The notes beneath the pieces are model-generated. The model made no database searches and was not told where the DNA came from. It saw only the letters and a program-made list of their open reading frames with translations. This document shows, piece by piece, positions 7,131 through 23,663 of a stretch of DNA of 64,000 nt (position 1 is its first letter; each line of letters opens with the position of its first letter). Source of the stretch: Polyangiales bacterium (GTDB lineage Bacteria; Myxococcota_A; Polyangia; Polyangiales; Ga0077539); the NCBI GenBank assembly GCA_046351555.1, contig JAXLYI010000006.1, positions 250,284 through 314,283 on the forward strand, read 5' to 3'. Position numbers and translations under genes: made by a program.

Positions 7131-7133
7131 GCG

Positions 7134-8141
7134 CTACGCCGTGAAGCGGTACCAGCCGTAGCTCACGCGCTCCAGCTTCCCCTCCGCCAGCATCTTCTTC
7201 ACCGCGCCCGGCGTGTGCCCGAGCGCCTTCAGCTCCCCCGCGGTGTACTCCCGCGCGGGTGTGGGGGCCTTCTTCGGCGCGGCCGCGGGCGCCTTCTTCG
7301 GCGCGGCCTTCTTCGGCGCGGCGGCCTTCTTCGGCGCGGCGGCCTTCTTCGGCGCGGCCGCGGGCGACGCGCTGACGGCGCCGTCGAGGTCGATGCCGAA
7401 CAGGTCGGCGAGGGCCTCGTCGCTCGCCTCGATCGCCCGCGGGGAGGCCACCCGCGCGCCCACGCGGCGGCCGGCCTCGGCGACGAGCTCGTTCATGTCG
7501 ACGCCGCGGAGCACGAAGAGGAGGTCGGGCTTCGTGTCGAGGCGCGCCCCGACGCCGTAGAGCACCGCGGCGACGTGCTTGCACACGTAGGCCCCGTCGG
7601 GGCACGAGCACGCGGCGTTGAGCTCCGACGCGCGGGGGATCATCCCGTCCTTGCTGTGCGTGAGCGCGCCCATCGCCTCGCCCGACACCTTGCCCTGGAG
7701 CAGCTCGAGCAGCGAGCCCACCCGCCCCGCGCACGACTCCCGCAGGCGCCTCCAGCGGTCGGCCGGGAGCGGCGTCACCGTCACCTGCACCGTGTAGAGC
7801 GACGAGCCGCTCACGAGGGCCTCGACGCGCCCCTTGGAGATGCCCAGGTGCGCCACGGAGCCGTTGCGGAGGTACGTCTTCCCCCGCGGGAGGCGGTTGG
7901 AGAAATCCGCCATGGACTCCAGCGCGTCGCACCACTGCTTGCCCCAGAAGGTGGTCGCCATCGCGCGCCCCGTCACCGACACGGGCTCGACCGGGAGGCC
8001 CTTCTTCTTCCGGGCCGCCATCGCCTTGTCGGCCGTCGCGCGGCGCGCGGCCACGGGCACGTACGGGGCCCACTGTGAGGCGCTGTAGCGCTCTCGGCTG
8101 CTCCATCTCGCCATGGGCGTGATGAGAGCTCCCGACCTCAC
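7134..8141 (-). CDS. SWIM zinc-finger protein with lysine-rich histone-H1-like tail
   Basis: CxCx6CxH SWIM motif (CSCPDGAYVCKH). A KKAAAP repeat tail is encoded by the 21-bp tandem repeat. It overlaps the upstream SNF2 gene by 4 nt. Confidence 0.75.
   Translation of the reverse strand: MRSGALITPMARWSSRERYSASQWAPYVPVAARRATADKAMAARKKKGLPVEPVSVTGRAMATTFWGKQWCDALESMADFSNRLPRGKTYLRNGSVAHLGISKGRVEALVSGSSLYTVQVTVTPLPADRWRRLRESCAGRVGSLLELLQGKVSGEAMGALTHSKDGMIPRASELNAACSCPDGAYVCKHVAAVLYGVGARLDTKPDLLFVLRGVDMNELVAEAGRRVGARVASPRAIEASDEALADLFGIDLDGAVSASPAAAPKKAAAPKKAAAPKKAAPKKAPAAAPKKAPTPAREYTAGELKALGHTPGAVKKMLAEGKLERVSYGWYRFTA
7264..7365. repeat. 21-bp tandem repeat (about 5 copies, GCCTTCTTCGGCGCGGC-like) encoding the KKAAAP tail of the SWIM protein
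   Basis: Visible tandem copies of ggccttcttcggcgcggc(g) on the + strand. Confidence 0.7.
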
Positions 8142-10861
8142 CCCTCGTCAAGGGCGCGCGCGAGGTCGAGGGAGACCACCTTCATCAGCTCGTCGTCGGA
8201 GAGCGCGGTGAGGTTCACCTCGGCGCCGCCCGGCGCGTCGAGGACGGCGTCGGCCAGCGCCCGCTTGCTCGTGAGCATCGCGTCGATCTTCTCCTCCAAC
8301 GTGCCGCGGCACACGAAGCGGTGCACCATCACGTTGCGCCGCTGCCCGATGCGGTAGGCGCGGTCGGTGGCCTGGTTCTCCACCGCGGGGTTCCACCAGC
8401 GGTCGAAGTGGACGACGTGCTGGGCGGCGGTGAGCGTCAGCCCGGTGCCCCCGGCCTTCAGCGACAGCACGAAGAAGGGGACGTTGGGGTCGCTCTGGAA
8501 GGCGGCCACCAGCTTCGCCCGCTGCTTCACCGGCACCTTGCCGTCGAGCACCACCCCCGCCGCGCCGAACACCCCCGCCAGCAGCGCCGCCAGCGGGCCC
8601 GTCATCTCTTGAAACTGCGTGAACACCAGCGCCTTCTCGCCGCGCGAGGCGACCTCCTCCGCGAGCTCGCGCAGCCGCGCGTACTTGCCGCTCGCGCCCG
8701 GGTCGAAGCGCCCGTCGCCCGTGAGCTGCGAGGGGTGGTTGCACGCCTGCTTGAAGCGCGTGAGCGACGCCAGCACCGCCCCCCGCCGCGCCGCCGGGTC
8801 GGCCGCGTCGGAGAGCTTGCGCTTCAGGTCGGCGATCACCTCGGCGTAGAGCTTCGCCTGGAGCGCGGTGAGCGAGCACCACGCCGTCACCTCCGTCTTG
8901 TCGGGCAGGTCGGCGATGACGCGCTTGTCGGTCTTGAGGCGCCGCAGGATGTACGGCCCCACGAGGCGCCGCAGGGGCCCGTAGCCCTCGCGCGACCCCT
9001 CCCCCGCGAGCGCCTTCGCGTAGCGCGAGAAGCTCTTCGCGCCGCCCAGAAGGCCCGGCTGGAGGAAGTCGAAGAGCGACCAGAGGTCGCCGAGGCGGTT
9101 CTCGACGGGCGTGCCCGTGAGCGCGAGGCGGGCGGCGCCGCGGAGCGACTTCACCGCGCGCGACTGCTTCGTGTCGGCGTTCTTGATCGCCTGCGCCTCG
9201 TCGATCACCACGACGTTCCACGGGCGCTCGCGGAGCCACGCGGCGCGGGCCACCATGCCGTAGCTGGTCACCACGACGTCGAGCCCGTCGCCCCACCCGG
9301 CCCCGTCGTCGGGCGGCGCCTCGGCGCCCGCGGAGGGGTGCGCGGTGCCCACGCGGAGCGACGGCGCGAAGCGGGCGAGCTCCGCGCGCCAGTTGGCCAG
9401 CAGCGACGCCGGCGCCACCACGAGGCTCGGCGGCGCGGCCTTCCGCTGGTGCTTCTTCTCCACCGCGAGCAGCGCGATCACCTGGAGCGTCTTGCCGAGC
9501 CCCATGTCGTCGGCGAGGCAGCCCCCGAGGCCGACCGTGCGGAGGAGCCAGAGCCACCGCAGGCCGTGCTCCTGGTAGGGCCGGAGCTTCGCCGTGAGGG
9601 CCTTGCCGGGGTCGACGTCGCCGAGGCCGCCCGGGTCGCGCAGGCCGCGCAGCAGGTCACGCAGCCAGGGCCCGGGCTCGACGCGGACCCACGCCGCGGC
9701 GCCCTCGTCGACGAGCGCGGGGTCGAGCTCCGCGGGGGCGGCGCCGGCGAGCAGGCGGAGGGCCTCGTGGACGGAGAGCCCGTCGCGCGCGCTCCGCTGC
9801 ACGTCGCGCCACCGCGCGAGGAGGGCCTCCAGGCGCCCCGCGTCGACCTCCACCCAGCGGCCGCGGAGGTTGACGAGCCCGGTGCCTGCGGCGCGGAGCA
9901 CGGCGAGGTCGTCGGGCGTGAGGGCCTCGTCGCCGAGCGCGAGCTCGACGGAGAAATCGAGCAGCGCGTCGAGGGAGAGGCGCTCCCGGTGCTCGGCGCC
10001 GACGCGCACGCGGACGGCGGGGCGCGCGGGGGCGCGGGGGTTCCACCAGTCGGGGAGGCGGACGGAGACGCCCGCGGCCTCGCAGTCGGGCGCGGCCTTG
10101 AGGAAGGCGTAGGCGCGCGCGGCGCTCCAGGCGAGGGGCTGGAAGATGTCGCCCGCGTCGACGAGGCCCTTCACGAAGGGGACGGTCTCCGACGCGCGCC
10201 GCACAGGCTCGAGGAGCGACTCCAGCCGCGCGCGGTCGCCCGTCTCCGCGGCCTCCTTCATCGCGCGCCCGAGCGGCGCGTGCTGCACCCTCCCCGCCGC
10301 GGAGACCCCCGTGGTGTAGGTCGCGAGGAAGGCGAAGGGGGCGGCCGCGTCGCCCTTGCGCTCCGCGAGGTGGAAGCACACGCGCCCCACGCGGTGCCAG
10401 AGCGGGCTCTGCGCCTGGAGCCACTGCTCCGCCGTGCCCTGCCACGCGCCGAGCGCCTCCGCGAGCGGGCCGTGGAGGCTCTCCCACCAGCGCCCGAGGA
10501 GCTCGACGTCGACGTACTCCGCGCCGGGCATCGGCGGCACGGCATCGGCGAGCGCCTCGAGCTCGTCGTCGGGCGGCGGCGGGACGCGCGCGTCGGCGCG
10601 GAGGGACTCGAGGTCGGGGAGTGCGCAGAGGCGGGCGACGAAGGCGCGGGCGACGTCGCGCAGCCACGCGAAGGGCGCCGGGAGCTGCGCGGCCACCTCG
10701 CGGGCGCCGAGTTGGAGGAGCCCGTGCCAGGGGCCGCGCGCGAAGGCCGCGAGGGTGCGCGCGGCGACGGCCTCGTCGACGAAGGGAGCGGCGCCGTCGA
10801 GGGCGCGCAGCGTGAGGTCGCCGGCGGCGGTGACGTGCGGCGAGGGGGGGGCGGCGGTCAT
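8138..10861 (-). CDS. SNF2/RapA-family helicase
   Basis: SNF2 N-terminal motifs LADDMGLGKT, DEAQAIKN and LTGTPVENRLGDLWSLF. Helicase C motifs LKAGGTGLTL and FDRWWNPAVENQATDRAYRIGQ. Confidence 0.85.
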   Translation of the reverse strand: MTAAPPSPHVTAAGDLTLRALDGAAPFVDEAVAARTLAAFARGPWHGLLQLGAREVAAQLPAPFAWLRDVARAFVARLCALPDLESLRADARVPPPPDDELEALADAVPPMPGAEYVDVELLGRWWESLHGPLAEALGAWQGTAEQWLQAQSPLWHRVGRVCFHLAERKGDAAAPFAFLATYTTGVSAAGRVQHAPLGRAMKEAAETGDRARLESLLEPVRRASETVPFVKGLVDAGDIFQPLAWSAARAYAFLKAAPDCEAAGVSVRLPDWWNPRAPARPAVRVRVGAEHRERLSLDALLDFSVELALGDEALTPDDLAVLRAAGTGLVNLRGRWVEVDAGRLEALLARWRDVQRSARDGLSVHEALRLLAGAAPAELDPALVDEGAAAWVRVEPGPWLRDLLRGLRDPGGLGDVDPGKALTAKLRPYQEHGLRWLWLLRTVGLGGCLADDMGLGKTLQVIALLAVEKKHQRKAAPPSLVVAPASLLANWRAELARFAPSLRVGTAHPSAGAEAPPDDGAGWGDGLDVVVTSYGMVARAAWLRERPWNVVVIDEAQAIKNADTKQSRAVKSLRGAARLALTGTPVENRLGDLWSLFDFLQPGLLGGAKSFSRYAKALAGEGSREGYGPLRRLVGPYILRRLKTDKRVIADLPDKTEVTAWCSLTALQAKLYAEVIADLKRKLSDAADPAARRGAVLASLTRFKQACNHPSQLTGDGRFDPGASGKYARLRELAEEVASRGEKALVFTQFQEMTGPLAALLAGVFGAAGVVLDGKVPVKQRAKLVAAFQSDPNVPFFVLSLKAGGTGLTLTAAQHVVHFDRWWNPAVENQATDRAYRIGQRRNVMVHRFVCRGTLEEKIDAMLTSKRALADAVLDAPGGAEVNLTALSDDELMKVVSLDLARALDEG

Positions 10862-10902
10862 CGGGGCCGCGGACGCTACCAGAGGTTTTCGACGGCGCGC
10901 GG

Positions 10903-11883
10903 ATGCGCTACGGAGCCGCGGACATGTTCGCCGCGACCTCCCCCTCCGCCGCCGAGCCCCTCCGCCTCGTCGAGCTCCCCCAACGGCCGCTCCGCTTCGA
11001 CGAGGTTCGCGTGAAGGTGCGCGCCGTCGGGGTGAACCCCGTCGACTGGAAGATGCGCGGCTTCGGCAGCCCGCTCGGCCTCGCGCAGCGCCTCCTCGGG
11101 CCGCGCGGGCCCCTCGTCGTGGGGACGGATTTCGCCGGCGAGGTCGTCGAGGTGGGCGCGAGCCTCGGCGGCACGAAGCCGGGCCTCCGCGTGGTGGGCG
11201 GGACGGACTTCTCGCGCGGTCAGCGCGGGAGCTACGCCGACGAGGTGGTGGTGCGCACCGACCAGTTCGCCGCGCTGCCCGACGGCGTGCGCTTCGAAGA
11301 CGCCGCGTGCCTGCCCGTGCCGGGCGTGACGGCGTGGCGGGCGCTCACGGAGGTGGGCGGGCTGCGCGAGAAGCGGGGCGCGCGCGTGCTGGTGCTCGGC
11401 GCGGCGGGCGGCGTCGGGCTGATGGCGGTTCAGCTCGCGCGCTCGCTCGGCGCGTCGGCGGTGGGCGTGTGCTCGGCGCGCAACGCGGCGCTCGTGGGGG
11501 CGATGGGCGCGGAGGTGGTCGACTACGGCGCGGGCGACGCGCTCGCGGCGGCGCGCGCGAAGGGCCCCTACGCGCTGGTGCTCAACGCGGTGGGCTCGGA
11601 CGCGTACCCCGTCGGCGCGTGCCGCGCGCTCCTCACGCCGACGGGCGCGGTGTGCCTCGTGGCCGCGCGGCCGCACGACTACCCGTCGCTCGTCGCGTAC
11701 GGCAACGTCCGCGCGGTGCTCGGGCGGCCGACGCGCGCGCTCCTCGAGCCGCTGGTGGCGGCGCTGGCGAAGGGCGAGCTGAAGGTGACCATCGAGGCCA
11801 CGCTCCCGCTCGCGGAGGCCGAGGAGGCGCACCGACGGTCGCGCACGGGCAAGGTGGTGGGGAAGATCGTGCTGCTGCCGTAG
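10903..11883 (+). CDS. Zinc-type alcohol dehydrogenase / NADPH:quinone oxidoreductase family
   Basis: MDR-family motifs (VKVRAVGVNPVDWK) and a Rossmann segment GAAGGVGLMAVQLA. The start may instead be 10924. Confidence 0.75.
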   Translation: MRYGAADMFAATSPSAAEPLRLVELPQRPLRFDEVRVKVRAVGVNPVDWKMRGFGSPLGLAQRLLGPRGPLVVGTDFAGEVVEVGASLGGTKPGLRVVGGTDFSRGQRGSYADEVVVRTDQFAALPDGVRFEDAACLPVPGVTAWRALTEVGGLREKRGARVLVLGAAGGVGLMAVQLARSLGASAVGVCSARNAALVGAMGAEVVDYGAGDALAAARAKGPYALVLNAVGSDAYPVGACRALLTPTGAVCLVAARPHDYPSLVAYGNVRAVLGRPTRALLEPLVAALAKGELKVTIEATLPLAEAEEAHRRSRTGKVVGKIVLLP

Positions 11884-12782: not shown

Positions 12783-13137
12783 CAGCCCGCGCGCGCGGCG
12801 CTACCTCTCGGCCCGCCGTCATGGTCCCCCGTGCGCCCACGTCCGTCCGCCCCCTCCGCCGCTCGACGAGCCTGGCGGCCGCGGACGCGTACGTGCGCCC
12901 CACGCTGGAATTGATCCTCGCACGCTGAGCCCGCGGGGGCGCAGCAACGGGCGAGCGACCCGACGTCCGCACGTCGAGGCCGCCGCCGTCGCCCCCGCCG
13001 CTCGCCCGCGTCCGCCGCCGCGCTGAACCGCGCGCCGGGCGCGCTGCCTCGTGCGGAGTGACCACCATTTCCACCACGCGATCACGCGCGGCGGGCGCGA
13101 CGACGCGCGCCCATCGACCGCGCGAAGGGAGACCTCC

Positions 13138-15240
<2,103 letters not shown>

Positions 15241-15258
15241 CGCTCACCCCAACGGCGG

Positions 15259-15289
15259 GGCGGCGCCCTCCTCTCCCGAGGGCGCCGCC
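15259..15289 (+). terminator. Perfect 12-bp-stem hairpin immediately after the EF-G paralog stop (no U-tract)
   Basis: ggcggcgccctc / ctctccc / gagggcgccgcc. The arms are exact reverse complements. Confidence 0.35.
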
Positions 15290-15331
15290 CACCGCCACTT
15301 CACCGCACGACGCGCTCGCGCTTGCCTTCGG

Positions 15332-16564
15332 GTGACGCCCTCGCCGACACTCACGCCCTTCCACCGAAAGGGCTTCGTCGTGGTCGCTCCGGGTCGCCGC
15401 CTGCGCCTGTGCCTCAAGGACCTCTACCACCAGGACGTGGTCGAGATGATCGAGCGCGAGACGCGCGCGTTCGAGCTCTGGGAGATCGTCGACCCCGACG
15501 ACCCGGGCTTCGCGGCGGCCTACAAGGTGCTCTGGGACGCCTTCGGCGCGCACGGCGAGATGGAGCGCGAGGACGTGATCAAGCGCTTCCTCCGCGACGA
15601 CGCCTTCGACCCGCTCCCGTCGGGCACGTACGTCCGCTACTTCCTCATCGCCGCGCGCGACAAATCGGGCCGGCTCCTCGGCGTGCGCGACGGCTCGGTG
15701 CTGGTCAACCCCGCCTACGACCCCGACCTCTGCCTCGTGTACCTGTCGCACCTCTACATGGTGCCCGAGGCGCGCGGCACGGTGCTCTCGTACGAGCTCC
15801 GCATCGCGCCCGTCGAGGTGGCGATGGACTACCTCGCCGAGCTCCACGCGCGCGGCAAGGTGAAGCTCCCGGCGCCCGACCAGCCCGGACGTCACTTCGG
15901 GATGCGCGTCGACCTCACCGCGGAGATGGAGTACTACGCGCCCGACGACCCGGTGTCGTGGCAGCGCATCTTGTTCTACGGCCGCGGGGGCTTCGACGCG
16001 GTGAACCCGCGCCACTTCCCCTACCTCCAGCCCGACTTCCGCGAGCCCGAGGAGATCCGCGCGACCGGCAACCGCCCGCTCCCCTTCATGGTGCTCGTGC
16101 GGCGCATGGGCCGCGAGCGCCAGGCCGCGATGCCGATCGCCGAGGCGCGCGCGATCCTGCGGCTGCTCTACGACGACTTCGCCTGCCACTGCGAGCCCGA
16201 GCACCTCGGCAACAGCCTCCAGCGCGTGCTCGACCGCCTCGCCGAGCGCGCGACGCGGAAGTCCTTCGTCGAGCTCCTCCCGCTGCCGAGCGGCCCGAAG
16301 GACCTCCACCGCATCCGCCCCCTCTTCCGGTACAGCGTCTTCCAGAAGTACTACCGCGGCGCGACGCCGGTGGTGGACGAGTACCTCGAGGGCCCCGTGC
16401 GCGAGCGGATCAAGGCCAACGCGGCGTACCTCGACGAGGAGCTGCGCAGGCTCGCGAAGCACCTGGAGAGCCGCCCCCGCTACGTCTACGCCAGCCGCGA
16501 CAAGGACCAGACCTGGGAGGGCAAGTCCGCCGGCACGCTCGACCCGCCGGACTTCAACCCGTAG
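15332..16564 (+). CDS. Hypothetical protein with N-terminal GNAT-like fold
   Basis: Normal amino-acid composition. The segment LYMVPEARGTVLSYEL resembles GNAT motif A. The C-terminal roughly 200 aa are unassigned. Confidence 0.5.
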   Translation: MTPSPTLTPFHRKGFVVVAPGRRLRLCLKDLYHQDVVEMIERETRAFELWEIVDPDDPGFAAAYKVLWDAFGAHGEMEREDVIKRFLRDDAFDPLPSGTYVRYFLIAARDKSGRLLGVRDGSVLVNPAYDPDLCLVYLSHLYMVPEARGTVLSYELRIAPVEVAMDYLAELHARGKVKLPAPDQPGRHFGMRVDLTAEMEYYAPDDPVSWQRILFYGRGGFDAVNPRHFPYLQPDFREPEEIRATGNRPLPFMVLVRRMGRERQAAMPIAEARAILRLLYDDFACHCEPEHLGNSLQRVLDRLAERATRKSFVELLPLPSGPKDLHRIRPLFRYSVFQKYYRGATPVVDEYLEGPVRERIKANAAYLDEELRRLAKHLESRPRYVYASRDKDQTWEGKSAGTLDPPDFNP

Positions 16565-16651
16565 CGCGGCGGAGGGTCGACACGCCCCCGCGCGGTGCTA
16601 CCGTGCGCGGCCCCCGGAATCGTCCGCGGGAAGAAGCGGGAACGGCCCCAA

Positions 16652-17092
16652 ATGCTCATCGAGGAGATTCGCAAGCGTCGCACGGAGGCCCTCAAGGCCC
16701 GCGACACCGTCACCAAGGAGGTCCTCAACGTCGCCATCGGCGAGATCGACACGATCGCCGCGCGGGCGGGGCGCGAGGCGACCGACGAGGACTGCCTGCA
16801 GGTGGTCCGCAAGCTGGTGAAGTCGAACGAGGAGACGCGCGCCGCCGCGACCGACGAGGCCCAGCGGGCGACGCTCACGCGCGAGATCGAGGTGCTCTCG
16901 GCGCTCCTCCCGCGCACGCTCGGGGTGCCCGAGGTGGTGGCCGCGCTCGCGCCCGTCGCCGACGCCCTGCGCGCCGCGCCCAACGACGGCGCGGCCACCG
17001 GCGTCGCGATGAAGCACCTCAAGACGGCCGGCGCCGCGGTGGACGGCAAGGTCGTCGCGCAGGCCGTCAAGCAGGTACGCGGGGGCGGTTGA
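16652..17092 (+). CDS. GatB/YqeY domain protein
   Basis: About 147 aa. The pattern matches the YqeY family (EALKARD ... REIEVLSALLP ... MKHLK). Confidence 0.7.
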   Translation: MLIEEIRKRRTEALKARDTVTKEVLNVAIGEIDTIAARAGREATDEDCLQVVRKLVKSNEETRAAATDEAQRATLTREIEVLSALLPRTLGVPEVVAALAPVADALRAAPNDGAATGVAMKHLKTAGAAVDGKVVAQAVKQVRGGG

Positions 17093-17108
17093 CCGCCGGC
17101 CCGCAACC

Positions 17109-17657
17109 GTGCGTAGTCTGCGACGCGCGTGCCCTCCTTCCCCGCCCACGACCTTGCTCCTGCCGCGCACCGTGCGCCTCCGCGCCGGCGCGGGAGGAGA
17201 CGTCGATGCCGTCATCGAAGCCGCCTCGCCGTCTCGGATGAAGGCCGTCCTCGATGCGTGGCCCACGCGGTTGTTTCTCCAGGGCGAGCCCGACAGCGAC
17301 TGGTATGACCCCGACGCCGGCAAGGAGCGCAACCTCCGCTACCCCGGCGAAGGGATCGAGCACGTCTACCTCGTGGCAGGCGGTGAGGTGCAAGGGTTGC
17401 TCATCACCTCACTGCCGGCGGTCACGCGAGCACCTTCGGAGCCGCTCGTCGCGTACATCGAGTACATCGCAGCGGCGCCTTGGAATCGTCCGTCCTCCGG
17501 CGAGGCACCGCGCTATCGCGGGGTCGGCAAGGCCCTTGTGCAGCACGCCGTCGCACGGAGCGCGACCGAGGGTCGCGAGGGGTGCCTCGGTTTGAACTTT
17601 CTCGGTGACCGTGCGTGGGCCGAAGGGTTCATGGGCGGAGAAAGGTCGGCACCATGA
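17109..17657 (+). CDS. GNAT-family N-acetyltransferase (putative)
   Basis: The segment YRGVGKALVQHAVARSATEG is motif A-like. The start may be the internal Met at 17238. The stop overlaps the next ATG (ATGA). Confidence 0.45.
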   Translation: MRSLRRACPPSPPTTLLLPRTVRLRAGAGGDVDAVIEAASPSRMKAVLDAWPTRLFLQGEPDSDWYDPDAGKERNLRYPGEGIEHVYLVAGGEVQGLLITSLPAVTRAPSEPLVAYIEYIAAAPWNRPSSGEAPRYRGVGKALVQHAVARSATEGREGCLGLNFLGDRAWAEGFMGGERSAP

Positions 17658-17836
17658 CGCAGGAGAACAAGACGCCGCAGGTCGCCGAGGAGAAGGCCGC
17701 GCCCCTCTGCGCGGACGCGCGTGGCGACGACTTCCCTGGGGTCGGCGGCGCGCTCCCGGCGCGTGGGCGCTCGGCGCCGATCCTCGATCAGGTGCGCCGC
17801 CGTGTGCGCCGCCGTGCGGTGATCACGCGCGCATGA
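17654..17836 (+). CDS. Small ORF (60 aa), translationally coupled between the GNAT and the ATPase
   Basis: ATG 17654 overlaps the GNAT stop. Its own stop overlaps ATG 17833. GGAGAAAGG lies 12 nt upstream. No homology is recognisable, so this is speculative. Confidence 0.3.
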   Translation: MTQENKTPQVAEEKAAPLCADARGDDFPGVGGALPARGRSAPILDQVRRRVRRRAVITRA

Positions 17837-19350
17837 CCGCTCCCCCTGTCCAGGTGGTCGACCCGGGCGTGCCCGGCCTCGCGATGGTGCTCGGTGGGGG
17901 CGTGTCGCTCCTCAAGCGGACGCCCAACGCCGCGCCGAGCGGCACGCTCCTCATCCGCGGCGCGCCGGGCGCGGGCAAATCGCTGCTCGGCCTACACGTC
18001 GCGGTCGGCGTCGCCGACGCGCTGGGGGGCGACGTCTGCTGCGCGTGCGTCGAGATCCTGCCGGTCGAGTTGCACGCCCAGGCCGCCCCCTTCGGCCTGT
18101 CGGAGCGCTTCGTCGAGGCGCCGTTCCCGCCGCCCCCGGGGGAGGCGTCGGGGAGGGCGCGCATCTTCGCCGGCCTGCTCGACCTCGGCGCGCGCCCGCA
18201 GGAGCAGGAGAACCTCGGCGCGGCGCTCTCGGCGCTCATCGGCGCCGCCGGCAGGGGCGGGGCGAAGCCGCGCGTGCTCGTGATCGACTCCCTCTCCGAC
18301 GGCTACGGGCTCGGCGGCTCGGCGCCCCGCGATCTCGCAGACGCGGTGTGCAAGCTCGCCGGGGAGCTCGGGCTGTACGTCATCCTGCTCGAGGAAGCCG
18401 TGGCCGCGAAGCCCACGGTGTGGAGCTTCGCCGTCGACGCGGTGTTCGAACTCGCCGTGCTCGAAGACGACGCGCGAGACCCCGCGCGTACCCTCGTCGA
18501 CCGGCGCCTCCGGGTCATCAAGAACCGCTTCGGCGAGGCCGATGCGAGCGTGCACCGGCTGGCCGTGTCGCCGGGGGAGTTCCGCGTGCTCCCCTGGCCT
18601 TCGTCGTACCTGCGCGCGGACTTCCTCGCGACGGGGCGCCCGTCGGCGCTACGAAAGCCCTTCCCGGTCGCGCAGCCGTGGCCCTTCCCGGAGGCCAACG
18701 GGACGTGGCCTGAATTCCGCCAGTGCGTCACGGCCGTCTTCGGGCCGGAGACGCATGAGGTCACTGCGCTCGCGCTGCGGCTCGGCGCGAAGACGCGCGA
18801 AGGACGCGACGCGCCCGGCCGCGACGTGCGGGTCGACCTGGGCTCCGCCGTGCCGCGAGAGGTGAAGGGCGCACCAACGGAGGTGATCAGCGTCGGGCGC
18901 CCCCACGTGAACGGCCACCGCTGGGTCGCCAGCGTATGGGCGGCGCTGGAGCGTGTGTCGCGTGACGACGAGGTCGGGGTACGACGCGTGATCCTCGGCG
19001 ACCTGCGGGTGTTGCGCACCTTCCAGCACCCGCACCTGATGTGGTCGGGCGTCTACGCAGTCGCGGGCCTGTGCCGCGCTTTGGGGGTCCCGCTGGTCGC
19101 GTACGCGACGGCCGAGCCGCGGGTGACCTACCAGGCGCTCGGGGTCGCGGGGGCTGTGTTTCCCTCGGAGACGATGGCGGATCACCCCCCTGTGGTCGAC
19201 ATCGCTGATGTAGTCATCGAGGTCCGTAGTCGGAGCGCAATGCAGGGCGAGGGGAAAATGGCCGGCGCTAACCAGCACGTCCAGGTCGCTGTCTCCGAGG
19301 TGTACGCCGGTCGACGGCTGCGCGAGTTCGTGCCCTGGCCGGCACCATAG
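17833..19350 (+). CDS. KaiC/RadA-like RecA-superfamily ATPase with C-terminal extension
   Basis: The segment DPGVPGLAMVLGGGVSLLKRT ... GTLLIRGAPGAGKS is Walker A in a KaiC-like context. A Walker B-like VLVIDSLSD follows. The C-terminal roughly 250 aa are unknown. Confidence 0.55.
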   Translation: MTAPPVQVVDPGVPGLAMVLGGGVSLLKRTPNAAPSGTLLIRGAPGAGKSLLGLHVAVGVADALGGDVCCACVEILPVELHAQAAPFGLSERFVEAPFPPPPGEASGRARIFAGLLDLGARPQEQENLGAALSALIGAAGRGGAKPRVLVIDSLSDGYGLGGSAPRDLADAVCKLAGELGLYVILLEEAVAAKPTVWSFAVDAVFELAVLEDDARDPARTLVDRRLRVIKNRFGEADASVHRLAVSPGEFRVLPWPSSYLRADFLATGRPSALRKPFPVAQPWPFPEANGTWPEFRQCVTAVFGPETHEVTALALRLGAKTREGRDAPGRDVRVDLGSAVPREVKGAPTEVISVGRPHVNGHRWVASVWAALERVSRDDEVGVRRVILGDLRVLRTFQHPHLMWSGVYAVAGLCRALGVPLVAYATAEPRVTYQALGVAGAVFPSETMADHPPVVDIADVVIEVRSRSAMQGEGKMAGANQHVQVAVSEVYAGRRLREFVPWPAP

Positions 19351-19393
19351 GGGCGCGACGGCGCCTTCGTTTTTCTGGTAGCGTCCGCCCCCT

Positions 19394-20323
19394 ATGAGCG
19401 GCACGGATCGGCCTCGGATCGGCGTGGCGGGACTCGGGATCATGGGCTCGGGGATGGCCGCCAACCTCGTGCGCAAGGGCTTCCCCGTCGCGGTGTGGAA
19501 CCGCACGCGCAAGGCCGCCGACACGCTCGCCGCGCTCGGCGCGAAGGTGGCCGCGACGCCGCGCGCGCTCGCCGAGCAGAGCGACGTGGTGGTGACGTGC
19601 CTCTCGACGCCGACGGTGGTGGGCTCGGTGGCGACGGGCCACGACGGGCTGCTCTCGGGCGTGCGCCCGGGGATGCGCTGGGTCGACACGAGCACCATCG
19701 GCCGCCCCACCGCGCTCGCGATGGCCGAGGCGGCGCGGAAGTACGGGGTGGAGTTCCTCGAGGCGCCGGTGACGGGGTCGAAGCAGGGCGCGCGCGACGG
19801 GACGCTGGTGGTGATGACCGGCGGCGCCTGGGAGACCCACCTCGCGTGTTTGCCTGTGCTCGAGGCGATCGGGTCGAAGGTGATCTACGTCGGGCCGCTC
19901 GGCACCGCCGCGGTGATGAAGCTCATCGGCAACACGGTGATCTCCTTCATGCTCGAGGGGCTCGCCGAGGGCGCCACGCTCGGCGCGCGGGCGGGCATTC
20001 CGTTCGAGAAGATTCTGGAGGTCATCCAGGCCTCGGGCTTCGCCTCGCCCTACTGGAACTTCAAGGGCGGCGCGATGGCCCGCCGCGACTTCGATCCGCA
20101 CTTCTCCATCAACCTCCTGCACAAGGACCAGTCGCTCGCCCTCGCCGAAGCCGCCTGGTACCGCGTGCCGATGCCGGGGCTCGCGGTGATCCAGCAGGTG
20201 ACGGCGACGGCGCGCGCGCTCGGCCACGGCCACGAGGACATCGCCGCGCAGATCAAGGCCGTCGAGGCGATGGCCGGCGCCCCCGAAGGGCGCGTGAGCG
20301 ACCGCCCCTCCGAGCTGCCCTGA
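19394..20323 (+). CDS. NAD(P)-dependent oxidoreductase, 3-hydroxyisobutyrate dehydrogenase family
   Basis: N-terminal GLGIMGSGMAANL Rossmann motif and overall HIBADH-family pattern. Confidence 0.8.
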   Translation: MSGTDRPRIGVAGLGIMGSGMAANLVRKGFPVAVWNRTRKAADTLAALGAKVAATPRALAEQSDVVVTCLSTPTVVGSVATGHDGLLSGVRPGMRWVDTSTIGRPTALAMAEAARKYGVEFLEAPVTGSKQGARDGTLVVMTGGAWETHLACLPVLEAIGSKVIYVGPLGTAAVMKLIGNTVISFMLEGLAEGATLGARAGIPFEKILEVIQASGFASPYWNFKGGAMARRDFDPHFSINLLHKDQSLALAEAAWYRVPMPGLAVIQQVTATARALGHGHEDIAAQIKAVEAMAGAPEGRVSDRPSELP

Positions 20324-20429
20324 GCACCGGCACGCTTCCTGGTAAGAACCTCCCCGAAGCCCGCGGGCGGCGCCGTTGTGCCACCGCGAGCCACGGGCGT
20401 GAAGCCCGCGCAACACCAGGAGCGAGACG

Positions 20430-21356
20430 ATGCGAACGATGCGATGGGTACTGATGGCCGCGCTGGCTGCCGCCGCGGCGGGCTGTGGCAGCGTGGTGGT
20501 TCAGCCCGGGCCCGGCGACGCGGCCGCGGTCGACGTCCCGGCGACGTCCGACACGCCCGCGCCGCCGCCGGACGCGCGGCGCACCTGCACCTCGAGCGCC
20601 GACTGCGCCCCCGGCGAGGAGTGTTACATCGCCGAGGGGTGCGCGGTGCCGAGCGTCTGCGGCCCTGCGCTCGGGCGGCCCTGCACCGACGACCTCGCGG
20701 CCTTCTGCGGCTGCGACGGCCAGACCTTCTCCTCCAGCTCGTCGTGCCCCTCGCGCACCTACGCCCACCGCGGGCCCTGCGAGGCGGCGGACGGCGGCCC
20801 TGGGGGCTGCGCGTTCCCTGACGGGCGCGTGTGCCCCTTCGGGCAGACGTGCCCCGCCGGCGACGGCTGCAACTCGTGCTCGTGCGGCCGCGACGGGACG
20901 ATCGCGTGCACGGGCCTGGCGTGCGTCGACGCGGGGCCGCCGGTGGACGTGCCCGCGCCCGGCTCGTGCCGGAGCGGCGCCGACTGCCCGCCCTCGATGA
21001 TGTGCGACGGCCCGGCCGGCTGCGGCGTGCCCTGGTCGTGCGTGCCGCCGCATCCCTGCACGGCGGACGTCGCGCCCTTCTGCGGCTGCGACGGGGCGAC
21101 CTTCTACGGGAGCTCGAGCTGCCCCGGCCAGATGTACCAGTCGCGCGGCGCGTGCCCCGCGGCGGACGGCGGCGCGGTGGCGTGCCGCGCGCAGGACGCC
21201 CGCGGCGACGGCCTCTGCGACGCCATCTTCGGCTACGCGTGGAACGGCATGACCTGCGTCGTCGTCACCGGCTGCCGCTGCGTCGGCGCCGACTGCGGCG
21301 CGCTCCTCCGCGACCCGGCCGCCTGCCGCGCGCGCTACGCCGCCTGCGGCGGCTGA
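20430..21356 (+). CDS. Cys-rich lipoprotein with two Kazal-like repeats
   Basis: Lipobox AAAAGCGS. The unit CxxGExC ... FCGCDGxTFxxSSSCP ... GxC occurs twice. About 36 Cys in total. Confidence 0.6.
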   Translation: MRTMRWVLMAALAAAAAGCGSVVVQPGPGDAAAVDVPATSDTPAPPPDARRTCTSSADCAPGEECYIAEGCAVPSVCGPALGRPCTDDLAAFCGCDGQTFSSSSSCPSRTYAHRGPCEAADGGPGGCAFPDGRVCPFGQTCPAGDGCNSCSCGRDGTIACTGLACVDAGPPVDVPAPGSCRSGADCPPSMMCDGPAGCGVPWSCVPPHPCTADVAPFCGCDGATFYGSSSCPGQMYQSRGACPAADGGAVACRAQDARGDGLCDAIFGYAWNGMTCVVVTGCRCVGADCGALLRDPAACRARYAACGG

Positions 21357-21399
21357 GCGTTCGTTCGCCCCCCGAACCATCGCCCGACGGCGCCGTCGC

Positions 21400-22027
21400 T
21401 CACCGATGGCGCCAGCGCTCGAGCCAGGCGTGGCGCGCCCACGCGCGGCGCTCGCAGGTGTAGTCGCGGAGGTCGCCGCCGAAGCCGTTCCAGGTGACGA
21501 CGGGGGTGCCGGACGGGGCGGCGGCGAGGGCGTCTTCGACGAAGGTGACGTCGGCGTCGAAGCCGTCGCGGCCGCGGGGCCACGCGAGGTCGATGCAGTC
21601 GCCCTCGTCGAGGTGGTGCTCGGCGAAGGGGTTGAAGAGGTAGAAGCCGTCGTGCGCGGCCCAGTCGACGTCGCGCACGTCGCCGCAGACGAAGCGCGCG
21701 CGCGACGCCCCGAGGGCCCCCGCCGCGGCCCGCGCCGCCTCCACCAGCCACGGCCGCCGCTCGACGCCCGTGAACGCGAGGTCCGTCACCAGCGCGCCCG
21801 CCACGCAGAAGCGCCCCGCGCCCGCGCCGACGTCGAGCACCCGCGTCGCGCCCGCCTCCGCGAGCCACGCGGCCGCCGTCGCCGCCACCTCCACCGGCGT
21901 CGCGTGCTGCGGTCGGAAGCGCCGGAACGCCTCGGGGTACGCGCCGTCGAGCATCGCGTCGGCCGCGTCGCTCCCCGCGCGGATCGACGCCGCCACCGCC
22001 GCCGCCACCGCCGCCGGGTCGGTCACC
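21400..22027 (-). CDS. Class I SAM-dependent methyltransferase (putative)
   Basis: VLDVGAGAGRF motif I. GTG start overlaps the upstream stop (GTGA). The longer listed ORF is N-terminal junk. Confidence 0.5.
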
Positions 22028-23663
22028 GCACGCGCCCCAGGCGCATCGGCCGCACCTCGACGGGCTCGCGCGCGCTGTGCCAGCGCTCGCCTCGGTCGTC
22101 CGACCAGAGCACCGCCGTCGTCGCCCCGCTCGCGAAGAGGACCACCCGGTCGTCGACCGCGAAGAGCCACAGGTCGCGCGCCGAGAGCCCGCCGTGCGCC
22201 GCGTCGTCGTCCACCGCGAACGCCCGCGCCGACGAGAACGCGCGGGGCGCCCCGTGGCGTGCGCGCAGCCCGTCGCCACCGTCGCGCGTCGCCCACACCG
22301 CGACGAGCTCGCCACCAACGCGGACGGCCCGCGCCAGGCCCTCCAGCGCGACCGACGGCGGGCAGTCCCCGCCCCGCTCGCAGCCCTGCGCGCGCGAGGC
22401 GCCGACGAGCGCGGCCCCGGACGCGTCGCACGCGAGCTCCGCGGGGGGCGTGACGGCGTCGAAGCTCCCGACGAGGCGCGGCGCGGCGTCTCCCTCCGCG
22501 ACGACGAGGTGCGCGCGGGCGCCGTCGGTGACGGCGACGTAGGCGACGCCCGGCGCGTGACAGCTCGCGAGGAGCGCGCCCGTCGACGAGAGCCCGGTGA
22601 CGCGAACCGCGGGCGCAGGCGCCGCGTCGTCGAGGCGCCGCGCGTCGAGCGAGGGGGTCGCGTCGGGGCCCGCGACGCCCACCCACCAGCGGGCGCGGCC
22701 GGTGGAGAGGATCGCCGACTCGCGCTGCGCGGGGACGCCGAGCGGCGTGAACGCGCACGCGCCGCCGCGCACGCAGCGGGCGAGGGCCGGCGCGCCGGGG
22801 CCCTCGGCGACCGCGTGGAAGACGTCGCCCGCGACGCGCACCGGGAGGCTCGCGGCGAGGGCGCGGCCGACAATGAACACCGGCGCGTCGGGCGCGTCGG
22901 CCGGCGCGACGGAGGCCGTGGGGAGCCCGCGCAGGAGGAGGGCCTCGGGGCCGTCGTTGCCGACGAGCCAGGACGGGGCGTCGTCGCCCGCACCAAGGCG
23001 GCGGCAGGCGACGGTGACGCCGCGGTCGCGCGAGCGGCAGAAGACGCGCTCGTGGGAGGGCTCGACGAAGAGCACCGAGAGCGTGCCGGCCGACGCGCTC
23101 CAGCCGGCGACGGTGGCGCCCGGCGCGACCGACGCGGGCACGACGTCGCCCGCAGTGCTCGCGAGCGCGTGGGCCTCGGGGACGCGTGGGGCACGCGCGG
23201 GGCCGAGGCCGCGGGAGGCCGCGTGCGCGCGGTCGGCGCGGCGGAGCTCGACGGCGCGCGGCACCCACGCGAAGGCCGCGCCCTCGCCCGCCCCCTCGCG
23301 GAAGGCCGTGATGGCGGCGGGGAGCGCGGCGTCGCCGAGGGCGCGGAGGAGGGCCGCGGCGGCAGCGTTGGCGGGCGAGGCGGCGGCGAGGGCGCGCACG
23401 TGCGGGGCGCAGGCGCCGGGCCACGCGGCGGCGGTGTCGGGGTGGAGCGCGACGCGGCGCGCGCGGGCCGCGAGGTCGCGGTCGGGGAGCCCGGGGGCGC
23501 CGAAGAGGCAGGCGTCGACGGCGGCGGCCGCGTCGTGCGCGCGGACGGCCGCGGCGCGTTCGGCGGCGAGGCGCGCGGTCTCGCGGCGGCGCACGCGGGC
23601 GAGGAGGCCGGCGGCGGCGAGGGCCGCGATTAGCGCGGCGAGCGCGGCGAGGCGGGGGCGCAT
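22023..23663 (-). CDS. Secreted/membrane-anchored hypothetical protein
   Basis: Starts MRPRLAALAALIAALAAAGLL (signal/TM). About 546 aa with normal composition. Confidence 0.45.
   Translation of the reverse strand: MRPRLAALAALIAALAAAGLLARVRRRETARLAAERAAAVRAHDAAAAVDACLFGAPGLPDRDLAARARRVALHPDTAAAWPGACAPHVRALAAASPANAAAAALLRALGDAALPAAITAFREGAGEGAAFAWVPRAVELRRADRAHAASRGLGPARAPRVPEAHALASTAGDVVPASVAPGATVAGWSASAGTLSVLFVEPSHERVFCRSRDRGVTVACRRLGAGDDAPSWLVGNDGPEALLLRGLPTASVAPADAPDAPVFIVGRALAASLPVRVAGDVFHAVAEGPGAPALARCVRGGACAFTPLGVPAQRESAILSTGRARWWVGVAGPDATPSLDARRLDDAAPAPAVRVTGLSSTGALLASCHAPGVAYVAVTDGARAHLVVAEGDAAPRLVGSFDAVTPPAELACDASGAALVGASRAQGCERGGDCPPSVALEGLARAVRVGGELVAVWATRDGGDGLRARHGAPRAFSSARAFAVDDDAAHGGLSARDLWLFAVDDRVVLFASGATTAVLWSDDRGERWHSAREPVEVRPMRLGRVR

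What the first reader, a model, noticed from the sequence alone, without database searches (positions are those of the whole stretch)
17109..19350. Translationally coupled GNAT / 60-aa ORF / KaiC-like ATPase trio
Two consecutive ATGA stop-start overlaps (17654-17657 and 17833-17836) chain three genes. These are a GNAT-type acetyltransferase, an unannotatable 60-aa ORF and a KaiC/RadA-like RecA-superfamily ATPase. The ATPase carries a 250-aa C-terminal domain of unknown function. Such tight coupling implies fixed stoichiometry, that is, a complex. I do not recognise this combination as a named system. It sits directly after a GatB/YqeY protein and an EF-G paralog. The function could be a modification or signalling module acting on the translation apparatus.
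Basis: partly seen in the sequence, partly recalled or inferred. Interest (0 to 1): 0.65.

Follow-up and report, generated by a model that had tools for sequence, protein, structure and literature searches.

The report
GNAT–microprotein–KaiC-like ATPase conflict cassette
The three overlapping genes are a real, recurring unit: a divergent acetyltransferase-fold protein, a conserved 60-residue partner peptide and a two-lobed KaiC-like ATPase, and they most likely form one variant of an undescribed myxobacterial toxin–antidote–ATPase system rather than a module acting on translation.

Summary
The trio exists as described. Three genes are chained by ATGA overlaps at 17654-57 and 17833-36 and followed by a terminator-like hairpin.

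Corrections:
- The first gene starts at GTG 17172, not 17109.
- It has no Pfam hit but folds as a GNAT.
- The ATPase's "unknown" C-terminal half is a second KaiC-type lobe without a P-loop.

The micro-ORF is a genuine gene. The trio recurs in a 96%-identical ortholog and in six more distant metagenomic loci, five of which are cut by a contig end. A profile search finds a family of 60-91-aa proteins.

The ATPase family (about 44 clusters, Myxococcota) nearly always follows two coupled genes, and these differ between loci. They include a Tse2-like ADP-ribosyltransferase toxin, a DUF4365 nuclease (PDC-M02A), DUF6932 (PDC-M63A), an unknown ~300-aa pair, or this GNAT.

The GNAT clade is usually followed, also on phage contigs, by a coupled partner. 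That partner often has an acidic DDF motif at its N-terminus, which the micro-ORF carries.

Best reading: an effector, antidote/adaptor and ATPase-switch conflict cassette. The EF-G and YqeY neighbours are not conserved elsewhere. This window's GNAT has lost 31 conserved residues and is probably inactive. No named system matches.

The parts
17172..17657 (+). Divergent GNAT-fold protein of the 'APWNR' clade, 161 aa, occupying the effector slot. The alternative start is TTG 17154. GTG 17109 is excluded.
   Evidence: AF2 pLDDT 88.6. All top-50 PDB Foldseek hits are GNAT acetyltransferases, best E=7e-5. Exhaustive HMMER finds 396 relatives. Motif A is R-Y-R-G-V-G-K-A. The NCBI product is P0045, 161 aa. 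Against L018 there are 8 synonymous and 5 nonsynonymous codon changes.
17597..17598 (+). Junction of a 93-nt in-frame deletion (31 aa) that removes the conserved beta5-alpha4-beta6 segment of the GNAT.
   Evidence: L018 has SIDAPDTLRWYRQTLRLRDLGADDNDEGRIY inserted here. The segment HSLPxAxxFYxxxGM...LxYFE is conserved across the family, including a nearly invariant Tyr. The same deletion appears in two other assemblies, L014 and L015.
17637..17645 (+). Shine-Dalgarno-like GGAGAAAGG, 9-17 nt upstream of the micro-ORF ATG.
   Evidence: Read directly from the sequence.
17654..17836 (+). 60-aa micro-protein, the proposed antidote/adaptor.
   Evidence: Called by gene finders. Identical except P8Q in L018. 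Belongs to a 12-member family found with profile A5. The family shows third-position-biased divergence.
17726..17764 (+). DDFPGVGGALPAR motif, the GNAT-associated half of the micro-protein.
   Evidence: The motif is shared with small ORFs or N-termini that follow GNAT-clade genes in L019, L025, L041, L048 and L042. An acidic DDF motif also occurs in partners on phage contigs.
17780..17833 (+). Basic C-terminal tail ILDQVRRRVRRRAVITRA, the proposed ATPase-facing half. Its stop overlaps the ATPase start.
   Evidence: It ranks 1 of 599 six-frame ORF tails in the window for similarity to tails of the common upstream 'B' proteins, with shuffle p=0.0024. A whole-peptide HMM test was not significant, E=1.6.
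17833..19350 (+). 505-aa two-lobed KaiC/RadA-like ATPase, the conserved core of the family.
   Evidence: 44 homolog clusters of 450-515 aa. AF2 pLDDT 88.7. Full-length KaiC is the top PDB match, about 520 aligned columns, TM 0.6, E about 1e-19. PDB profile hit to KaiC at E=2.8e-7.
17959..17982 (+). Walker A motif GAPGAGKS in the N-lobe.
   Evidence: G43, G46, G48 and K49 are invariant in 44 sequences.
18271..18291 (+). Walker B strand RVLVIDS.
   Evidence: V150, D152, S153 and L154 are invariant.
18520..18534 (+). KNRFG motif, of the RadA/DnaB/KaiC-clade trans-acting type.
   Evidence: K230 and R232 are invariant. The sequence reads aagaaccgcttcggc. That this motif is typical of RadA rests on my own knowledge.
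18700..19347 (+). Second RecA/KaiC-like lobe without a P-loop, a pseudo-ATPase lobe.
   Evidence: Foldseek aligns both lobes to KaiC CI+CII. hhalign of the N-lobe against the C-lobe gives E=1.8e-4, in register over 177 columns. The position of Walker A reads GPETHEV.
19350..19377 (+). Terminator-like GC hairpin plus T-run directly after the ATPase stop.
   Evidence: This is a consensus match only: 2 were found against 1.1 expected in shuffles.

Best explanation
The trio is one variant of a modular three-gene conflict cassette, either defence-like or toxin-antitoxin-like, built around a Myxococcota-specific two-lobed KaiC-like ATPase.

**Slot 1** holds an exchangeable effector or toxin. Here it is a divergent GNAT acyltransferase. 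In other loci it is a Tse2-type ADP-ribosyltransferase, a DUF4365 nuclease, a DUF6932 nucleotidyltransferase-like protein or an unknown ~300-aa protein.

**Slot 2** holds an antidote/adaptor. Its N-terminal part matches the effector; for the GNAT clade this is the acidic DDF(P)G peptide. Its C-terminal basic tail goes with the ATPase.

**Slot 3** holds the ATPase. I infer that it is a hexameric switch which, through that tail, controls whether the antidote stays on the effector. It would release the effector on a trigger such as infection or stress.

**The 60-aa ORF** is the minimal form of the adaptor: motif plus tail.

**Shown:** the gene order and coupling are conserved, the modules are exchanged between loci, and the folds are as stated.

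**Inferred:** physical contacts, toxicity, the trigger, and the direction of control.

In this window the GNAT has lost 31 conserved residues. The effector is therefore probably disabled while the micro-protein and ATPase remain intact.
For: 1. **Conserved ATPase position.** The ATPase family is conserved and nearly always preceded by two co-directional genes. The second of these overlaps the ATPase start by 4 or 1 nt in about 24 of 36 loci.
2. **Toxin-type families in slot 1.**
   - Tse2 ADP-ribosyltransferase toxin, PF18648, 34.7 bits above the cut-off (L028; homologs in L002, L023, L024).
   - DUF4365, which matches PADLOC PDC-M02A at E=5e-35 (L017). It is also the nuclease effector of SPARDA systems (PMC10810196).
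   - DUF6932, which matches PDC-M63A at E=3e-16 (L034).
3. **The slot-2 protein is bipartite.**
   - In L034 its N-terminal half is unrelated, but its tail is the same as in GNAT-type micro-proteins, and its ATPase sits in their clade.
   - In L017 it equals only the N-terminal ~90 aa of PDC-M02B.
   - In Sorangium (L041) and L048 the micro-protein motif is the N-terminus of a 355-aa protein that follows the GNAT without any ATPase.
4. **GNAT-clade layout.** The GNAT gene is usually followed at -4 to +4 nt by a partner. On phage contigs the GNAT is the C-terminal domain of larger proteins with an ORF immediately downstream. The best viral fold matches are 'minor capsid proteins'. This is the usual toxin-immunity layout (PMC5576092).
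5. **Signs of acquisition.**
   - The trio has lower GC3 than its flanks.
   - Other loci sit next to Uma2, PIN_12, AAA_15/21 and PLDc genes.
   - A second, DUF4365-type cassette occurs in the same sequencing run.
Against: - No component of the window's trio matches any PADLOC model. The best hit is mad8 at E=3e-4, a generic ATPase similarity.
- The PDC entries are themselves only candidates.
- Nothing shows that the GNAT is toxic. Its closest solved folds are ordinary acetyltransferases such as AAC(6') and Hpa2, not TacT/AtaT-type toxins.
- No ATPase relative is found on plasmids, phages or viral contigs.
- The window's immediate neighbours are housekeeping genes, not defence genes.
- Tail similarity rests on one post-hoc test (p=0.0024), and a broader HMM test failed.
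- Many contexts come from short contigs.
- The ATPase tree is a rough neighbour-joining tree.
Confidence: 0.5

Rival explanations
1. A regulatory or signalling module without a toxin. The KaiC-like ATPase would be a stress- or timing-type switch, as in KaiC-KaiA/KaiB or GvpD-GvpE. The GNAT and micro-protein would be its modifiers or adaptors, for example through acetylation of the ATPase or of a client protein.
For: The two-lobed KaiC architecture has an active N-lobe. KaiC-family proteins are known to work with small partner proteins (my own knowledge). The GNAT's nearest solved folds are ordinary acetyltransferases. The window's neighbours are housekeeping genes.
Against: This does not explain why the slot upstream of the same ATPase is filled in other loci by a Tse2 ADP-ribosyltransferase toxin, a DUF4365 nuclease or DUF6932. 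It also does not explain why the GNAT and DDF partner travel without the ATPase, including on phage contigs. No kaiA or kaiB-like gene is nearby.
Confidence: 0.2
2. A decaying remnant. In this genome the cassette no longer works, because the GNAT lost its motif-B region. The tight coupling is only inherited history.
For: The 31-aa in-frame deletion removes conserved residues that are present in the 96% ortholog and in all family members. The deletion appears in three assemblies.
Against: The micro-ORF and ATPase are intact. Walker A, Walker B and KNRFG motifs are retained. Against L018 the ATPase shows 24 synonymous and 13 nonsynonymous codon changes, and the GNAT shows differences biased to third positions. 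The deletion is in frame. This reading concerns only this copy and is compatible with the main explanation for the family.
Confidence: 0.15
3. One reading: a modification or signalling module that acts on the translation apparatus, for example by acetylating ribosomal proteins, EF-G or aminoacyl-tRNA as a housekeeping function.
For: In this window the trio lies next to YqeY and an EF-G paralog. Some GNAT toxins and RimI/J/L enzymes do act on translation components (my own knowledge).
Against: EF-G, the 410-aa gene and YqeY accompany the trio only in the window's own copies and the near-identical L018. They are absent from every other fetched ATPase locus and every other GNAT-clade locus fetched by then. 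GC3 of the trio differs from that of these neighbours.
Confidence: 0.05
4. A DNA-repair or recombination helicase of the RadA/Sms type, with two accessory factors.
For: The protein has a KNRFG motif and a RecA-superfamily core. There is a weak TIGR00416 hit.
Against: TIGR00416 scores 16 bits against a cut-off of 403. There is no zinc finger and no Lon-like C-terminal domain; the C-terminus is a second KaiC-type lobe. The family is restricted to about 44 clusters in Myxococcota, with exchangeable toxin-type neighbours.
Confidence: 0.05

Closest known systems
KaiC (cyanobacterial clock ATPase) and archaeal KaiC-like proteins such as PH0284
   Same: Two tandem RecA-type lobes aligned over about 520 columns, TM about 0.6. 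Profile hits to KaiC at E=2.8e-7 and to PH0284 at E=5e-5. The N-lobe has Walker A, Walker B and catalytic Glu.
   Different: The second lobe has no P-loop. Pfam PF06745 scores below its cut-off (25.1 against 26.6). There are no kaiA or kaiB genes. The family is limited to Myxococcota and is tied to exchangeable toxin-type genes.
PADLOC phage-defence candidates PDC-M02 (DUF4365 + B) and PDC-M63
   Same: Sister cassettes of the same ATPase family use PDC-M02A plus the N-terminal ~90 aa of PDC-M02B (L017), and PDC-M63A (L034), in slots 1 and 2.
   Different: The window's own GNAT and micro-protein match no PDC model. No PADLOC model matched the ATPase beyond a weak mad8 hit. The PDC systems are untested candidates.
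Toxin-immunity pairs of polymorphic toxin systems, such as MuF phage toxins and Tse2-Tsi2
   Same: The toxin-type domain comes first, with a short cognate partner gene immediately downstream (PMC5576092). A Tse2-family domain fills slot 1 in some loci. The GNAT clade occurs as a C-terminal domain of larger proteins on phage contigs, with an ORF immediately downstream.
   Different: Here the toxin-type protein stands alone, without a trafficking domain, and a third gene, an ATPase, is coupled to the partner. Acetyltransferase or GNAT is not mentioned in PMC5576092.
Tripartite toxin-antitoxin-chaperone (TAC) systems
   Same: By analogy only. Both have three coupled genes, and in TAC a C-terminal extension of the antidote makes it depend on the third protein (my own knowledge).
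   Different: The third protein here is a KaiC-like ATPase, not a SecB-like chaperone. The gene order is effector, then antidote, then ATPase. No sequence relation was found.
GNAT-RHH type II toxin-antitoxin pairs (TacAT, AtaRT, KacAT)
   Same: A GNAT-fold protein is paired with a small protein.
   Different: In those systems the small gene lies upstream and has an RHH/DUF1778 domain. Here it lies downstream and has no such domain. Solved GNAT toxins are not among the top-50 fold matches.

Membership tests
GNAT (GCN5-related N-acetyltransferase) superfamily | Mixed alpha/beta GNAT fold | tested here: met
   AF2 pLDDT 88.6. All top-50 PDB Foldseek hits are GNATs, best E=7e-5, TM about 0.5. Viral library hits are also N-acyltransferases.
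GNAT (GCN5-related N-acetyltransferase) superfamily | Motif A, the pyrophosphate-binding loop Q/R-x-x-G-x-G/A after beta4 | tested here: met
   The window has R-Y-R-G-V-G-K-A. The family consensus is PRFxGVG.
GNAT (GCN5-related N-acetyltransferase) superfamily | Intact beta5-alpha4-beta6 region (motif B) | tested here: not met
   31 aa are deleted in the window copy. They are present in L018 and in all 49 aligned relatives.
GNAT (GCN5-related N-acetyltransferase) superfamily | Match to a curated GNAT profile (Pfam or NCBIfam) | tested here: not met
   No hit even at E<=10 for the window protein or the intact L018 protein. One relative hits Acetyltransf_10 weakly at E=0.002.
GNAT (GCN5-related N-acetyltransferase) superfamily | Acyl-CoA-dependent transferase activity | not testable with these tools
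   Needs an enzyme assay.
KaiC | Two tandem RecA-like domains (CI and CII) | tested here: met
   Foldseek aligns both lobes to full-length KaiC. Internal hhalign gives E=1.8e-4.
KaiC | Walker A and Walker B motifs in both domains | tested here: not met
   Only the N-lobe has GxxGxGK[ST]. The C-lobe reads GPETHEV at that position.
KaiC | Pfam PF06745 score above the gathering threshold | tested here: not met
   25.1 bits against a cut-off of 26.6.
KaiC | Partner genes kaiA and kaiB nearby | tested here: not met
   No such domains were found in the eight genes of 13051-21356 that were scanned.
RadA/Sms | KNRFG motif | tested here: met
   K230-N-R-F-G234, with K and R invariant.
RadA/Sms | N-terminal zinc finger, C-terminal Lon-like domain, and the TIGR00416 equivalog score | tested here: not met
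   TIGR00416 scores 16.2 bits against a cut-off of 403. The C-terminus is a KaiC-like lobe. No N-terminal Cys cluster is present.
PADLOC-listed defence systems, including candidates PDC-M02 and PDC-M63 | Component proteins match the system's HMMs | tested here: not met
   The window's GNAT and micro-protein have no hit. The ATPase hits only mad8 at E=3e-4. Sister cassettes do match PDC-M02A, part of PDC-M02B, and PDC-M63A.
GNAT-RHH type II toxin-antitoxin | Upstream RHH/DUF1778 antitoxin gene | tested here: not met
   The small gene is downstream and has no Pfam domain. The upstream gene is YqeY.
Toxin-immunity or effector-antidote pair (generic) | Effector toxic alone and neutralised by the adjacent small protein | not testable with these tools
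   Only layout and module covariation support it.

The most novel reading that the evidence does not exclude
The KaiC-like ATPase may be a general 'socket' that reads a short basic C-terminal tail. Any toxin-antidote pair could then be placed under ATP-dependent control by adding that tail to the antidote. On this reading the 60-aa protein is the minimal natural adaptor, consisting only of an effector-binding DDFPG peptide and a tail. This would be a new class of ATPase-gated toxin-antidote immunity, and a new job for the KaiC fold outside clocks.
Probability: 0.25. Interest if true: 0.8.

Novelty: new variant of a known kind. Interest (0 to 1): 0.6.

Why it matters
If the reading is right, myxobacteria carry an undescribed family of three-gene conflict systems. 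None of the libraries or paper searches used here describe it. Its constant part is a KaiC-type ATPase, a fold known mainly from circadian clocks and archaeal regulators. Its variable part is a plug-in toxin-antidote pair.

It would give a clean natural example of a micro-protein that works as a two-ended adaptor. It would also add a large, unannotated GNAT clade (about 400 members, also on phage contigs) to the list of candidate toxin domains.

The system is directly testable with four constructs: effector alone, plus micro-protein, plus ATPase, and tail or Walker A mutants.

Tried and rejected
1. **Tail HMM against the whole window.** I built an HMM from the C-terminal tails of upstream 'B' proteins and searched the window's six-frame translation. 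The micro-ORF ranked 4 of 788 with E=1.6, which is not significant. Only the narrower tail-versus-tail test gave rank 1 of 599, p=0.0024.
2. **Micro-protein as a shortened common 'B' protein.** I tested whether its N-terminal half is homologous to the N-terminus of the common 'B' protein. hhalign gave probability 0.1%, so I rejected this.
3. **L034 slot-2 protein.** I tested it for a PDC-M63B match and found none.
4. **RiPP precursor reading of the micro-ORF.** I rejected it because the C-terminal part is not conserved and the motif is fused to 355-aa proteins elsewhere.
5. **RNA element.** There is no Rfam family in 15000-21500.
6. **Mobile-element carriage of the ATPase.** No hits in plasmids, phages or IMG/VR.
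7. **Profile searches of the trio.** PADLOC, NCBIfam and PHROGs gave nothing useful.
8. **Sequence search of the common 'A' protein against PDB.** No hit.
9. **Literature searches.** Searches for KaiC-like ATPases in defence found nothing relevant.
10. **First tblastn for the GNAT and micro-ORF.** No hits in 13 genome loci. This at first suggested non-conservation. Metagenome loci and the profile search overturned that.
Full report
**What is in the window**

The region lies in a ~75% GC genome. The ATPase product is identical to a protein of a Polyangiales bacterium MAG, locus tag U0324_11160.

Three co-directional ORFs are chained by ATGA overlaps at 17654-17657 and 17833-17836. Position-specific GC shows coding signal in each of the three frames. 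Third-position GC is 0.75-0.9 there, against 0.95-1.0 in the flanking genes. Automatic gene calls on two other assemblies of the same sequence list all three genes.

A GGAGAAAGG sequence lies 9-17 nt before the micro-ORF start. No comparable site precedes the ATPase start, so its translation probably depends on the overlap (inference). A GC hairpin with a T-run follows the ATPase stop at 19350-19377. This is a consensus match only.

**An orthologous locus**

Metagenome contig L018 is collinear with window 15105-23086 at 93-97% identity. It keeps the trio and both overlaps. Codon-wise differences are as follows:

| Gene | Synonymous codon changes | Nonsynonymous codon changes |
|---|---|---|
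| GNAT (from 17238) | 8 | 5 |
| Micro-ORF | 0 | 1 (P8Q) |
| ATPase | 24 | 13 |

Two differences between the window and L018 matter:
- A 2-nt indel at 17142/17143 destroys the frame from GTG 17109. The first gene therefore starts downstream of it. NCBI's 161-aa product starts at GTG 17172, and homologs align from that 'VRLR' N-terminus.
- L018 has 93 extra in-frame nucleotides at 17597/17598, encoding SIDAPDTLRWYRQTLRLRDLGADDNDEGRIY.

**The first gene**

No Pfam, NCBIfam, PADLOC, PHROGs or PDB sequence hit exists for the window protein. Pfam and PDB also gave nothing for the intact L018 version. A word-indexed search found only the protein itself.

An exhaustive HMMER search found 396 relatives at E<=1e-3, mostly 190-215 aa. 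Their alignment shows LVYVEYxAxAPWNR, PRFxGVG, GRxGLHSLPxAxxFYxxxGM and LxYFE. This is the order of GNAT strand beta4, motif A, beta5-alpha4 and beta6.

The AF2 model has pLDDT 88.6. All top-50 PDB matches are GNAT acetyltransferases.

The window copy lacks exactly the conserved beta5-alpha4-beta6 block, including a nearly invariant Tyr. I infer that this copy is catalytically impaired.

**The ATPase**

Forty-four clusters of 450-515 aa were found. Those that carry an organism name are Myxococcota, apart from one MAG labelled Pseudomonadota. Sources name them 'KaiC/GvpD/RAD55 family'. Met-1, Walker A, Walker B, a CVE glutamate and KNRFG are conserved.

The AF2 model has pLDDT 88.7. It matches full-length KaiC over both lobes. 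Profile search of PDB gives KaiC and PH0284. The N-lobe and C-lobe profiles align in register at E=1.8e-4.

The '250-aa domain of unknown function' is therefore a second KaiC-type lobe that has lost its P-loop.

**The micro-ORF is a conserved gene**

The first tblastn in 13 genome loci found neither the GNAT nor the micro-ORF. Metagenome loci changed this picture:
- L025 has a GNAT relative (206 aa), a 74-aa ORF and an ATPase, with the small ORF's stop overlapping the ATPase start by 1 nt.
- L019, L040, L051 and L052 show parts of the same arrangement.
- P0217 is a frame-fused micro-protein plus ATPase call.

A profile of these peptides retrieved 12 called proteins of 60-91 aa (one frame-fused call is 141 aa). 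Among four loci, differences in the core 33-35 codons concentrate at third positions, for example 6/6/17. This shows selection on the peptide.

The window's peptide is the shortest and most divergent member. It keeps DDFPGVGGALPAR.

**Two views of modularity**

*View 1, from the ATPase.* About 24 of 36 loci have an upstream gene whose stop overlaps the ATPase start by 4 or 1 nt. Another co-directional gene precedes that one.

The pairs differ between loci:

| Loci | Slot 1 | Slot 2 |
|---|---|---|
| At least 15 loci with B, incl. Myxococcus (L001), Pyxidicoccus (L008) | Common A, ~300 aa, unknown (clustered in 11 of them) | Common B, ~300 aa, unknown |
| L028, L002, L023, L024 | Tse2-type ADP-ribosyltransferase toxin | ~90-aa (L002, L023, L024) or ~180-aa (L028) protein |
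| L017 | DUF4365 (PDC-M02A) | 122-aa protein equal to the N-terminus of PDC-M02B |
| L034 | DUF6932 (PDC-M63A) | 88-aa protein |
| L006, L009 | Unknown | Unknown |
| Window and relatives | GNAT | Micro-protein |

L034's 88-aa protein has a different N-terminal half but the same C-terminal tail as the GNAT-type micro-proteins. Its ATPase falls within their clade.

*View 2, from the GNAT.* The gene is followed at -4 to +4 nt by one of several partners:
- The micro-protein plus the ATPase.
- A 355-aa protein whose first ~45 residues carry the micro-protein motif, in Sorangium sp. So ce233 (L041) and in L048. Its remainder matches phrog_27609.
- A 91-aa protein (L042).
- An M78 peptidase protein resembling CapP (L050).
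- No tightly linked partner (L045, L046; L047 has only a 62-aa ORF 150 nt downstream).

Ten IMG/VR contigs carry relatives. Five have a ~285-aa partner that overlaps or lies within 4 nt. Three carry the GNAT as the C-terminal domain of 407-651-aa proteins followed by another ORF. The best viral fold matches are 'minor capsid proteins'.

The partners' N-termini repeatedly show an acidic DDF motif: LHDDFT, LLDDFS, LEEDFP, LEDDFP, MDEDFL and MFDDFA. The myxobacterial versions are GDDFPG, EDDLFPG and EADGFPG.

**Interpretation**

The slot-1 families are toxin or effector types. The gene order, effector then short partner, is that of toxin-immunity pairs (PMC5576092). DUF4365 is a proven immune nuclease domain in SPARDA (PMC10810196).

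The slot-2 proteins look bipartite. Their N-terminal part goes with the effector, and their C-terminal tail goes with the ATPase.

For the window's peptide, the tail resembles those of the common B proteins. It ranks 1 of 599, p=0.0024. This test was post hoc, and a broader HMM test failed, so I treat the tail link as moderate evidence.

I therefore read the trio as effector, antidote/adaptor and ATPase switch. Contacts, toxicity, trigger and direction of control are all inferred.

**The translation idea**

EF-G, the 410-aa gene and YqeY accompany the trio only in the window's own copies and in L018. They are absent from all other fetched loci. The adjacency is local, not a conserved association.

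**Limits**

- Many loci are short contigs, and my ORF calls for them are mechanical.
- The PDC systems are untested candidates.
- No window protein matches a defence model.
- The ATPase is not seen on mobile elements.
- The multimer prediction and the experiments that would decide the matter could not be run.

**Verdict**

The interpretation as a coupled functional unit that is not a named system is supported. The proposed link to translation is not.

The finding is best filed as a new variant of ATPase-associated toxin-antidote or defence cassettes. In this particular genome it is seen in a copy whose effector is probably disabled.

Noticed in passing
window 15332-16564 (+): A 410-aa protein sits between the EF-G paralog and YqeY. 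It has no Pfam, NCBIfam, PADLOC or PHROGs hit. Its GC3 is about 1.0, and against L018 it shows 17 synonymous and 3 nonsynonymous codon changes. It is a conserved gene of unknown function.
   Followed up: partly
window 20430-21356 (+): A Cys-rich 308-aa protein with a weak Pacifastin hit is the fastest-evolving gene in the region. Against L018 it shows 50 nonsynonymous and 25 synonymous codon changes and 273 nt of indels.
   Followed up: no
window 17093-17171: The 79 nt between the YqeY stop and the GNAT start have no substitutions against L018, only the 2-nt indel. Flanking genes differ by 2-4%. The micro-ORF itself has 1 difference where about 5 are expected (the Poisson estimate is mine, p about 0.03).
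   Followed up: no
L017 (Logan SRR26348422), 423-2682: The same sequencing run that holds the window's contig also holds a paralogous cassette. It consists of a DUF4365 nuclease (PDC-M02A), a 122-aa protein (the N-terminus of PDC-M02B) and a KaiC-like ATPase, all joined by 4-nt overlaps.
   Followed up: partly
L008/L016 4203-7548 (Pyxidicoccus caerfyrddinensis); L001 (Myxococcus sp. RHSTA-1-4): This is the most common cassette of the ATPase family. It has two ~300-aa proteins with no known domain: A with motifs PFVHFP, HVFAYAGPCCY and ADRRAWTWEAR, and B with GFHGEVD..TPARRA and WWLSRAAL. Its GC3 is about 0.75, against more than 0.9 in the flanks.
   Followed up: partly
tails of the genes upstream of the ATPase in most loci: Most of these proteins end in -(E/K/R)AA, which recalls ssrA-type C-terminal degrons. 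It may instead be a by-product of a GAGG/AAGG ribosome-binding site for the ATPase, read in the upstream frame. The window's peptide ends -TRA.
   Followed up: no
L041 (Sorangium sp. So ce233, CP150319.1) 6001-11500: The GNAT plus 355-aa partner sits beside an APH-family kinase, PLDc_2 fragments and an AAA_15/AAA_21 ATPase with a small partner gene. This neighbourhood resembles a defence island.
   Followed up: no
L060 3324-5279 (IMG/VR contig): A 651-aa protein ends in an APWN-type GNAT domain. Its residues 62-142 match the C-terminal part of a solved phage portal protein (9b41_L, E=3e-10). This suggests a virion-associated carrier for the GNAT domain.
   Followed up: partly
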